Shown: positions 20,561 to 24,078 of the stretch, piece by piece
How positions within the stretch are numbered: position 1 is the stretch's first letter
Layout of the letters: every line of letters starts with the position of its first letter
Source of the DNA: Octopus sinensis
Lineage: Eukaryota
Length of the DNA: 64,000 bases
Assembly: GCF_006345805.1 (NCBI RefSeq)
Contig: NC_043019.1
Location: 21,513,360 to 21,577,359 of the forward strand
Reading direction: 5' to 3'
Notes under the pieces: generated by a model
Database searches by the model: none
What the model saw: the letters and a program-made list of their open reading frames with translations, nothing else
Told to the model about the DNA's origin: nothing
Translations under genes and position numbers: made by a program

Positions 20561-21839
20561 TATTATTAGTAGTAGTAGTAGTAGTAGCAGTAGTAGTAGT
20601 AGTAGCAGCAGCAGTAGCAGTAGTAGTAGTAGTAGTAGTAATAATAATATATTCTCAGACAGAGAAAAATTACTTGGTCAAAGGTCATGAAGTATGTACC
20701 ATTGCCCTGGACATAAAGATGCTTCGTAACAGAGGCTGACACAATATAATACTCAAAGGGCTTGTGGCTAATTGCTTCAGTGGTTGTGAAACTAATTAGA
20801 CAGAATATCCATCAATGGCATTCTTTCAGATCAATATTTTCATCCGTCACCAGTCAATGGACCATTCACAGAATGTTCAATGTCAGACCAGTTTTTAGTT
20901 TTCAAAAATGACCTGATTTATCAATGCCTGCAAATGCGTGTTGTATCCATAAGGTGATGACATTACAATATTTTCCCAAGTAAGAACTTTAGTGAAGGCA
21001 TATGGCTTAGTGATTAGAGTATCTGGTTCATGAATGTAAGATTGTGAGTTTGATTCTTTGTGGAGCATTGTGTCCTTAAGCAAAACACTTTAGCCATGTC
21101 CCTTTGCATTAAATATGCTAACACAAACTTAACTATTGTTTTTCATGCAGATGGTGTCTCTGAGTCTGGATCAAGGGTCTAAAAGGCTTAGAATTTTATA
21201 ACTCTTTTTTAAAAAAAAGTTACTCTGCAGGTTGTTGTGTGGTTAAGAAGTTCATTTTGCAATCACATAGTATCAGGTTCAATCCCACTAAGCAGTACTT
21301 TGGGCAAATGTCTTCTACTATAACCTTGGGCTAATCAATGCCTTGTGAATGAATTTAGTAGATGGGAACTGTGTGGAACCTAGTTGTATAACTGTGTGTG
21401 TAGCATCCAGCATGCTCTGATAAGTGGCTGGTCTTAGGAAGGGCATGTAACCATAGAAACCATGCCACAACAGACAGTTGGAGTCCAGACAGCACCCTGC
21501 TAGCCAACTCAATGTCAAACCAACCATCCAATCAATGCTAGCATGGAGACTGGACATTAAACGATGATGATGGTAATGATACGTATGTGTGTGTGTTATT
21601 GCGTCTGTACCCCTGCCAACTGCTTGACAACTAGTGTTGGTTTATTTATATTTCTGTAACTTAGTGGTTCAGCAAAATAGACTGATAGAATGAGACCTTG
21701 ACTTAAAAAAATAAGTACTGGGATTGATTTGTGAGACAAAATCTTTCAAAGCAGTGCCCCAGAATAGCTGCAATCCAATTACTGAAACAAATAAAAGATA
21801 ATGACTACAAAAGATTTGTGTTGAAACAGAAATATTTAT

Positions 21840-22167
21840 GCATAATTAAATCTCAGAATGAGATTGAAACAGTAATCGCTCGATAATGTAAAGTATAGAA
21901 GCCATCTTATCATGGCTAACCACATAGGGGAGGGGGTGTTACTGTAGCTTTATAGCCCCAAGAGATCGTCATCTCTAGCTGGCTTTAGACACCATATCAG
22001 TGCCCTTGAAGTATTTGCAACCCTTTGCAACTCTTTGCAAATACTTCAAGGGCATTGATATGGTGTCTAAAGCCAGCTAGAGACGAAGATCTCTTGGGGC
22101 TATAAAGCTACAGTAACACCCCCTCCCCTATGTGGTTAGCCATGATAAGATGGCTTCTATACTTTAT
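21840..22167. mobile_element. Penelope-like palindromic insertion 1: 49-bp unpaired end plus 132-bp inverted arms
   Basis: Arms 21889-22020 and 22035-22166 with 3 mismatches; 12-bp direct repeat AGAAATATTTAT at 21828-21839 and 22168-22179. Confidence 0.75.
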
Positions 22168-22231
22168 AGAAATATTTATCTTCATTGAAAAAGAAAAAAA
22201 AAAATGATTAAAAAAAAGTTCGTTAACGAAC

Positions 22232-22475
22232 CTAAATGCTGCTGTCCTTTCTGAACTTTGATGTTTTTCTCCAGTGAAGCAGGTAAGGAGTCGACAGAGC
22301 CACTTAATGATCGTAAAGAAATTGGTGATGGAAGCGGTGACATTCTTGGAGACATTGTGCGTGGTGTGGATGATGGTGATGAAAATGCTTTAAGGTCACT
22401 TGTGGTGAAATGATCGGATGATGAACTATCCACACTTTCAGACTTTTTGTGGCCAATATGAGCTTTTAGATTTAC
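22232..22475 (-). CDS. MPDZ: MPDZ-family exon: Ser/Pro-rich linker and start of PDZ6 (…LEKNIKVQKGQQHLG)
   Basis: ctgtag|GTA acceptor and TTAG|gttcgt donor; 244 bp, phase 0-1. The split Gly codon joins the next exon in frame. Confidence 0.88.
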
Positions 22476-22522
22476 CTACAGTTGCAAAGAAAGAAAAGAA
22501 AATGGTAAACCGTAATTAAGCT

Positions 22523-22750
22523 TTAACCCTTTAGTGTTTAAACCGGCCATATCCGGCTAAAATATTTTACCTATTTTATGTTCAAACTAGTCAGATATAG
22601 TCATTCATAGCTATTTTATTGTGTCATTTTAAAAATAAAGAATCACATCATTGAAATCTCAAAGCCATGAAATGATACAAGATTAATTTTACATGGTGTG
22701 AATACACAAGCGCTACATTTTACAGAATAATCTGAATGCTAAAGGATTAA
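22523..22750. mobile_element. piggyBac-like MITE
   Basis: TTAA-CCCTTTAG ... CTAAAGGA-TTAA termini; related fragments near 33427 and 58160-58345. Confidence 0.65.
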
Positions 22751-22961
22751 ATGGAATAATAAAGTGATGTTTATAAAGGGTTATCAAAGATTTGCAGCTA
22801 ACAGTTCCAGCTGAATGTCAAACCAAATTAATCTCCCCAGTTCTTAGAGAGTGAGCTTATAATTAGCTCAAAATAGTAAAAACTTTACAGCTTGGCAAGT
22901 TGGCTCATTGTTAAACTTTGAAGTCCCAGACATCCATTTTCTTGTAAAAATAAAATTAACA

Positions 22962-23218
22962 ATAATAAATCTCTGAGCGAGGTATAAACAATAGCTGCAA
23001 CACATCGTGAAGTATTTTTGCCACTTAAATGTGGCTAACCCCTAAGGGTGGATGCTACTGTAGCTTGTAGCCCCAGGAGGACACCTCCTCCAGCTGGCTA
23101 TTGACACACTTTTTGACACAACTCCTCCAGGTGGAGGAGGTGTCCTCCTGGGGCTACAAGTTACAGTAGCATCCACCCTTAGGGGTTAGCCACATTCAAG
23201 TGGCAAAAATACTTCATG
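22962..23218. mobile_element. Penelope-like palindromic insertion 2 (same family as 21840-22167)
   Basis: Arms 23004-23097 and 23127-23220 with 4 mismatches; TSD ATAAAATT(A/G)ACA at 22950-22961 and 23219-23230; homologous unpaired end TAAATCTC.GA..GAG.T..AAACA. Confidence 0.75.
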
Positions 23219-24078
23219 ATAAAATTGACACTTAAATGTATTCATGTGTTTCTCAAAAAAGTAATATTTCCTTATTGGGAGAACTGTTAGAGAGTCTGAC
23301 ACAATTACTTGCCATGTCTTGTACCAGTTTTTATCAATCTGATGAGAAAACCTCCAGTGATACTGATGTGAAGCTGTACTGGTCTTTAAAAATAGTCCCT
23401 CTCATTTGGACAAAATTGGTGACATGTAGAGGAGAACCATCAATTTTATGTTTATAATTGTAGATACATGGCCAAACTTGACCAATAGGCATCTGAGACT
23501 AACAGTCTGGTCACAGACCAATGACTGCAACCAGATGAAGGTAGTGCCTTAATATAACTATTATCTGATAAGCGAAGATGATAAAGGAATCAAAGAATAA
23601 AAGAATCAAAGAATACAGTAATCTAAAAGCTACATTCAGCGCAAATATGAATACAGAGTTCAAACAGAAACTGAATATATTCAATAAATAGCTTAACTTT
23701 GGAAAATAAATGTATATATATATATATATATATTGGAAAATAAATATATATAAAAAAAAAGTCTATATTCAGATCAAAATTTCTAAAACATCAACAATAA
23801 CAACAAAAACAATGACAGTGCTGCCACTACCACTGCAGAAGACAAGTTAAACATTAATAGTAAAAGACAATAGCAGGAAACAGCCAATAAAATTCAATGT
23901 ATCAATAACACACACATACATACATACATTAGGGAAAAAAATTCAGTTAAATTAAACCAGGAAACCTGTCAGTTGGAATTCTATAGAAATCATGTTTTTC
24001 AGTTTTTATTGTTGTTGTTGTTTATATTTTTTATTATTAATTTTATTATCAAGAGGTTATTACACACACACACAACTG

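What the first reader, a model, noticed from the sequence alone, without database searches (positions are those of the whole stretch)
21828..23230. Two diverged hairpin retro-insertions share a covarying RNA fold with hammerhead-like topology but a non-canonical core
Seen: elements 21840-22167 and 22962-23218 are clearly homologous yet well diverged, and their differences preserve internal stems. AGAGAT-cgtc-ATCTCT (21961-21976) vs GGAGGA-cacc-TCCTCC (23076-23091) gives three compensatory pairs. GCCAT-n6-ATGGC (21901-21916) vs GCCAC-n6-GTGGC (23020-23035) gives a fourth. On the outward-reading strand (22062-22120) the fold is GGTGT-CTAAA-[GCC..stem..GGC]-TATAAAG-C-TACA-GTA-ACACC, a closed three-way junction with GUA just 5' of stem I, where a type-I hammerhead cleaves. 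In copy 2 the closing stem is GTGT/GCAT, which pairs by G-U on this strand only. Established: Penelope-like elements carry minimal hammerheads in their pseudo-LTRs. Inference: CUGANGA and GAAA are replaced by CTAAA/CAATA and TATAAAG/TACAAG, so this may be an undescribed hammerhead variant, a new self-cleaving motif, or an RT-recognition structure.
Basis: partly seen in the sequence, partly recalled or inferred. Interest (0 to 1): 0.85.

Follow-up and report, generated by a model that had tools for sequence, protein, structure and literature searches.

The report
Retrozyme stumps sharing conserved RNA domain
The two hairpins are truncated copies of a known kind of small jumping RNA that carries an ordinary hammerhead ribozyme outside this window, and the flagged stems belong to a separate folded domain, kept across six families, that likely tells a Penelope-type reverse transcriptase where to bind and start copying.

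Summary
The stems are real; the hammerhead reading is not. Both elements are 5'-truncated, partly inverted copies of young, abundant ~350-nt non-coding tandem units. Longer copies elsewhere in the genome carry a normal type I hammerhead; the window copies begin 40-75 nt downstream of its cut site. They are non-LTR retrozymes. I found six related families (57-75% identical across the flagged domain). The copies end at two fixed points inside and just after this domain, and 37 of 46 inverted insertions have one long and one short arm: the Penelope 'tail' signature. The domain is therefore most likely the reverse-transcriptase docking and start element (inferred). No autonomous partner sharing it was found, and expression and cleavage are untested. 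A 2020 review says animal retrozymes show no conserved motif, so the domain is a modest, testable addition. The scan earlier noted similar palindromic Penelope-type ends in other genomes.

The parts
21828..21839 (+). Left target-site duplication of element 1 (12 nt; right copy 22168-22179)
   Evidence: Identical 12-mers
21840..22020 (-). Element 1 long arm (family 1): begins about 42 nt after the hammerhead cut site, holds the whole domain, ends at the long 3' end
   Evidence: L001, unit positions 43-226
21988..22004 (-).
   Evidence: Predicted unprompted by RNAalifold with covariation; 5 of 5 pairs in 6 of 7 groups
21954..21984 (-). Stem B, a 4x3 internal loop constant in families 1-5, and variable hairpin C (21961-21976)
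21938..21945 (-).
21901..21916 (-). Hairpin E, inside the multi-helix junction closed by D; the short 3' end falls 12-18 nt after it
21869..21876 (-). 3' strand of long-range stem D
21850..21864 (-). Hairpin F, about 10 nt before the long 3' end (seen in families 1-5, not family 6)
22035..22167 (+).
22168..22179 (+). Right target-site duplication of element 1
22950..22961 (+). Left target-site duplication of element 2 (12 nt, one mismatch to 23219-23230)
22962..23115 (-). Element 2 long arm (family 2): stem D strands 23054-23061 and 22988-22995, hairpin C 23076-23091, hairpin E 23020-23035
23127..23218 (+). Element 2 short inverted arm, ending at the short 3' end
23219..23230 (+). Right target-site duplication of element 2
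56963..57193 (.). Third palindromic, truncated copy in the window, of the more distant family 6
   Evidence: Weak covariance-model match, sequence, genome search, tandem units with hammerhead

Best explanation
The two hairpins are truncated, partly inverted copies of ~350-base hammerhead-carrying repeat units (non-LTR retrozymes), and the flagged stems belong to a conserved multi-helix RNA domain, not a hammerhead, that likely serves as the docking and start site for a Penelope-like reverse transcriptase. Shown: tandem non-coding units with a type I hammerhead; a fold shared by six families (hairpin A; stem B with internal loop and hairpin C; long-range stem D closing a junction of two or three hairpins; hairpin F); two fixed 3' ends, one 12-18 nt past hairpin E and one about 50-77 nt past it; 11-16-nt target-site duplications and frequent insertion into (TA)n. 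Inferred: tandem units are transcribed and cut to monomers or circles by the hammerhead; an RT/GIY-YIG protein of an autonomous Penelope-like element binds the domain, nicks both strands of AT-rich DNA with a 12-14-nt stagger, and starts cDNA at the two internal sites, one per target strand; early termination of both copies gives a head-to-head insertion with one long and one short arm that usually lacks the hammerhead, as in this window. Because both arms repeat the same stretch, the template must be copied twice (two RNAs, a multimer or a circle).
For: Families of 1484 and 2086 first-look candidates, scored copies 91-100% identical. Tandem periods 349-362 nt, GC 37-44%, longest ATG frame 30-64 aa in 5 of 5 units tested. 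Hammerhead core CTGATGA in 13 of 15 family-2 copies, TTGACGA in 10 of 13 family-1 copies, U3-A8 type in 23 of 29 family-3 copies; Rfam HH9 at E 1.8e-8 on family 1. A model built from families 1, 2, 4, 5 finds held-out family 3 at 63-70 bits and family 6 at up to 40 bits. A cluster of ends 12-18 nt past hairpin E and a second at the long end in all six families, thin for the short end in family 5. 37 of 46 inverted insertions in families 1-3 pair a long with a short end. Duplications of 8 nt or more at 21 of 26 loci outside (TA)n, against 650 of 3192 mismatched flank pairs. PMC11167929: a Penelope-like protein starts reverse transcription at two internal sites in a stem-loop downstream of the hammerhead, and the interval is the genomic tail. 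PMC8557442: inverted 5'-truncated copies and a one-sided tail are Penelope hallmarks. The genome holds RT plus GIY-YIG elements.
Against: No autonomous element shares the domain: the model found none in pLTR position in 39, 16 and 28 loci around GIY-YIG genes, only retrozyme copies inserted nearby. The domain is only slightly better conserved than the rest of the unit (0.45 against 0.38-0.39 pairwise identity), so structure here is not unique to it. Stem D exceeds probability 0.5 in only 86 of 147 single copies and in a minority of the older families (7 of 21, 5 of 20, 5 of 10). RNAalifold on the sequence-only alignment recovered A and E but not B, C or D. The partner strand of D was chosen as the best complement within a 35-nt range. 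Covariation rests on six lineages of one genome, without a tree-aware test. Folding energy favours the hammerhead strand clearly only in families 2 and 5. Family 1 has a U3-G8 core, recalled as slower than C3-G8, and Rfam missed the family-2 hammerhead at E 10. The long end is favoured by the search queries; the short end is not.
Confidence: 0.65

Rival explanations
1. The elements are retrozymes, but the domain serves the free RNA (compaction and stability of the circle, ligation, or binding of a host protein) and the two ends are set by local sequence, not by this fold.
For: The whole monomer is structured (z -1.3 to -4.9) and conservation is nearly even along it; retrozyme circles are described as highly self-paired (PMC7229834); no autonomous element with the domain was found.
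Against: The short end keeps its distance from hairpin E in families 57-75% identical; the minimal RNA and start sites of the one Penelope-like element tested in vitro lie in the same position relative to the hammerhead (PMC11167929).
Confidence: 0.2
2. The copies are pseudo-LTR fragments of an autonomous Penelope-like element that I did not sample, not an independent non-autonomous family.
For: Truncated, inverted pLTR ends with a hammerhead look the same (PMC4209133); only 40 candidates per family were scored.
Against: In families 1 and 2 the copies that extend past the hammerhead continue into the preceding unit, up to three in a row, with no coding frame.
Confidence: 0.08
3. The domain is a second self-cleaving RNA, a hammerhead variant or a new class, cutting after the GUA.
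Against: No CUGANGA or GAAA in the motif; a real hammerhead lies upstream; the GUA is paired in stem D and is changed in family 3; family 6 replaces the internal loop; no ribozyme family of Rfam matches the domain at E 5-10; copy ends do not cluster at the GUA.
Confidence: 0.04

Closest known systems
Animal non-LTR retrozymes (Cervera and de la Pena 2020, PMC7229834; Li et al. 2026, 10.64898/2026.07.22.740005), nearest in size the 350-390-bp mussel repeats
   Same: Tandem non-coding units of about 350 nt, one type I hammerhead each, GC below 50%, target-site duplications longer than 4 nt, co-occurrence with Penelope-like elements.
   Different: Here a covarying domain outside the hammerhead is shared by six families, and most copies are truncated inverted stumps with two fixed ends; PMC7761336 states that such repeats show no conserved motif pointing to their partner. 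Circular RNA and cleavage are untested here.
pLTR and 'tail' of endonuclease-bearing Penelope-like elements (PMC8557442; PAc element of PMC11167929)
   Same: Inverted 5'-truncated copy, partial tandems, tail on one end only, AT-rich and (TA)n targets, two internal start sites downstream of a hammerhead.
   Different: No coding frame; interval between the ends is about 35-60 nt; no sequence or model match to the pLTRs of the autonomous families sampled in this genome.
Type I hammerhead ribozyme (Rfam RF02275 HH9; minimal forms of PMC4209133)
   Same: The upstream motif in full units has the core, stems I and II and a short palindromic stem III; the U3-A8 variant occurs in families 3 and 6.
   Different: The flagged motif has none of the core residues and a different topology.

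Membership tests
Hammerhead ribozyme (flagged motif) | CUGANGA and GAAA core | tested here: not met
   Absent in all six families at this place; no Rfam hammerhead match on it
Hammerhead ribozyme (flagged motif) | Three helices round the core with an unpaired cleavage nucleotide | tested here: not met
   Closing stem above 0.5 in 1 of 147 copies, 1 of 4 pairs in family 5; GUA paired in stem D
Hammerhead ribozyme (flagged motif) | Site-specific self-cleavage | not testable with these tools
   Needs in vitro transcription
Non-LTR retrozyme | Type I hammerhead in the repeat unit | tested here: met
   Cores counted; HH9 E 1.8e-8, 38 bits, below the gathering score of 52; family 2 by direct reading only
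Non-LTR retrozyme | Tandem units of about 150-450 bp with two or more hammerheads in a row | tested here: met
   Periods 349-362 nt in families 1, 2, 3, 5, 6; consecutive hammerheads in L025, L034, L117, L202; no full unit extracted for family 4
Non-LTR retrozyme | No protein coded; GC below 50% | tested here: met
   Longest ATG frame 30-64 aa, GC 37-44% in 5 of 5 units
Non-LTR retrozyme | Target-site duplications longer than 4 bp | tested here: met
   21 of 26 loci outside (TA)n have 8 nt or more
Non-LTR retrozyme | No LTR pair, tRNA primer site or polypurine tract | tested here: inconclusive
   No LTR-flanked internal region in the copies mapped; primer site and purine tract were not searched for
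Non-LTR retrozyme | Expressed as linear and circular monomer RNA that self-cleaves | not testable with these tools
   Needs RNA from the animal and an in vitro assay
Penelope-type insertion | Inverted 5'-truncated copy with tail on one end | tested here: met
   31 of 57 loci inverted; 37 of 46 long plus short
Autonomous Penelope-like element | RT plus GIY-YIG frame upstream of the repeat | tested here: not met
   Units continue into units; model finds no domain in pLTR position behind sampled frames

The most novel reading that the evidence does not exclude
The A-F domain is the first conserved cis-element of animal retrozymes: the RNA structure that recruits a Penelope-like RT dimer in trans and places its two active sites at two fixed start points, one for each target strand, which would explain the long-arm/short-arm inverted insertions and give a 160-nt handle for directing Penelope-type integration.
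Probability: 0.4. Interest if true: 0.7.

Novelty: new member of a known kind. Interest (0 to 1): 0.42.

Why it matters
How animal retrozymes get copied is open: the partner is argued from co-occurrence and pLTR likeness, and a 2020 review notes no conserved motif. Six diverged families in one genome give a covariation-supported fold and two nucleotide-level predictions for where reverse transcription starts, so Penelope-type RNA recognition becomes directly testable with a short RNA. It does not add a ribozyme class.

Tried and rejected
Rfam at gathering scores on the window: 0 matches; at E 5-10 on full units only HH9 on the family-1 hammerhead and chance hairpin matches. Search for the autonomous partner: GIY-YIG family search, 40 stretches fetched, a second clade by protein; model searches of 39 of 40, 16 of 20 and 28 of 30 of these loci found only neighbouring retrozyme insertions; L083 and L229 looked linked but the retrozyme sits in an adjacent (TA)n tract. 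A hairpin-E-like stretch behind the L096 gene was private to that copy. The 3' end of the second clade has two ends about 57 nt apart but no similar fold. A genome-wide search with the covariance model was not available, so families were found one by one and more probably exist. Expression: no RNA holder listed; contigs of 4 runs only guessed to be RNA cover the unit and 2 of 4 join its end to its start, which fits tandem DNA and circular RNA alike, so it is no evidence. An octamer-like stretch shared by families 1 and 2 is changed in families 3 and 4 and pairs within the monomer, so I did not read it as a promoter. Literature searches gave no description of this domain or of cephalopod retrozymes; the supplement of PMC7229834 could not be read and bioRxiv supplements are closed, and either may list such repeats.

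Full report
Observation. Element 1 has arms 21889-22020 and 22035-22166, element 2 has 23004-23097 and 23127-23220; in each, one arm runs about 45 nt further than the other. The two are 74% alike over 80 nt. The window comes from a 2.7-Gb animal genome; its SINE-like repeats recall octopus, from memory and untested.

What the elements are. Each is one of a large young family: 1484 and 2086 first-look candidates, of which 40 each were scored, at 91-100% identity. Longer copies are head-to-tail units of 349-359 nt, 65% identical between the two families over the whole unit. Each unit holds a type I hammerhead: family 2 has CTGATGA, a short stem II, GAAA, a palindromic stem III and GTC in 13 of 15 copies that reach it; family 1 has TTGACGA in 10 of 13. 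Rfam HH9 matches the family-1 motif at E 1.8e-8, 38 bits, under its gathering score, with an extended stem I; it misses family 2 at E 10. Four more families turned up in neighbouring DNA and in the window, all with hammerhead-type cores, mixed in the decayed family 4, and 57-75% identical across the flagged domain. Five full units are 349-362 nt, 37-44% GC, with no ATG frame above 64 aa. This meets the sequence-level definition of non-LTR retrozymes in PMC7229834 (abstract, two of six parts and Discussion read) and in 10.64898/2026.07.22.740005 (three of five parts read).

The fold. The strand used as 5' closing strand forms hairpin A with upstream bases; RNAalifold predicts it unprompted, with two-sided changes, and it has 5 of 5 pairs in 6 of 7 groups. 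Stem B changes on both sides in families 3 and 5 and is followed by an internal loop constant in five families. D closes a junction of hairpin E and one or two variable hairpins; hairpin F follows in families 1-5. The closing stem keeps 4, 4, 3, 2, 4, 1 and 2 of 4 pairs across the groups and exceeds probability 0.5 in 1 of 147 copies. It appears in the short arm only because that arm stops before the partner strand of D. A model built without families 3 and 6 finds both. Against: D exceeds 0.5 in 86 of 147 single copies and in a minority of the older families; RNAalifold did not recover B, C or D on the sequence-only alignment; its partner was picked as best complement within 35 nt, though it matches the aligned columns in families 1, 2, 4 and 5; the domain is only a little better conserved than the rest of the unit; folding z-scores are -1.4 and -3.2.

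The ends. Copies stop at two places in every family: 12-18 nt past hairpin E, inside the junction, and about 50-77 nt past it, just after F; the short end is thinly sampled in family 5. Of 57 family-1 and -2 loci (60 fetched, 3 overlapping ones dropped), 31 have an inverted part and 31 lie in (TA)n; 21 of the 26 others have duplications of 8 nt or more, mostly 11-16, against 20% of mismatched flank pairs. In 37 of 46 inverted insertions of families 1-3 one arm has the long end and the other the short; the queries favoured a long arm, not the short partner. PMC8557442 (passages) gives inverted truncated copies and a one-sided 30-40-bp tail as Penelope hallmarks. PMC11167929 (two of four parts) shows that a Penelope-like protein needs RNA just downstream of the hammerhead, starts at two internal sites in a stem-loop, and that the tail is the interval between them. 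PMC4209133 (one of four parts) describes the dimeric minimal hammerheads and the U3-A8 variant.

Mechanism. Shown: unit, hammerhead, fold, two ends, duplications. Inferred: transcription, cleavage to monomers or circles, binding of the domain by a Penelope-like RT/endonuclease in trans, and priming from both target strands at the two sites. Both arms repeat the same stretch, so the template is copied twice. The genome has suitable enzymes, but none of 83 loci searched round such genes has the domain in pLTR position, so the partner is unnamed.

Comparison and novelty. The elements are new members of a known class; the flagged motif fails the hammerhead test and matches no Rfam ribozyme. PMC7761336 (passages) says animal retrozyme repeats show no conserved motif that points to their partner; six searches found no description of this domain, with unread supplements as a gap. 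Earlier scan notes on palindromic Penelope-type ends in other genomes agree but were read after this reading was formed and were not checked. Verdict: retrozyme identity about 0.9, RT-docking role about 0.65, new ribozyme about 0.04; interest 0.42.

Noticed in passing
window 56963-57193: Third palindromic truncated retrozyme copy, family 6 (2700 first-look candidates); full units of 352-355 nt carry a U3-A8 hammerhead.
   Followed up: yes
L013:1702-1772 and other family-1 copies: The youngest family has a U3-G8 wobble in the hammerhead core in 10 of 13 copies, yet is 95-100% identical across scored copies; this fits the report that cleavage is not needed for insertion in vitro (PMC11167929).
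   Followed up: partly
L082:2253-4592, L085:2032-4374, L083:2745-5069: Penelope-like elements with open 775-781-aa RT plus GIY-YIG frames; the 781-aa family has many near-identical copies and its own U3-A8 hammerhead about 70-80 nt before its 3' end.
   Followed up: partly
L227-L256: A second, distant Penelope-like clade (8019 first-look candidates, decayed) with a hammerhead-like motif and two 3' ends about 57 nt apart.
   Followed up: partly
L083:5954-6270, L229, L088:5260-5780, L119: Retrozyme copies often sit in (TA)n tracts at the ends of other Penelope-type insertions, giving nested clusters.
   Followed up: no
window 19009-19218, 21260-21371, 24899-25053, 25284-25492: Several dispersed SINE-like repeat families; they recall octopus SINEs (from memory, not tested).
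   Followed up: no
L003:129-396, L021:1758-1987, L104:2066-2470: Further subfamilies 80-86% identical to families 1, 3 and 2, each with a hammerhead-like core.
   Followed up: partly
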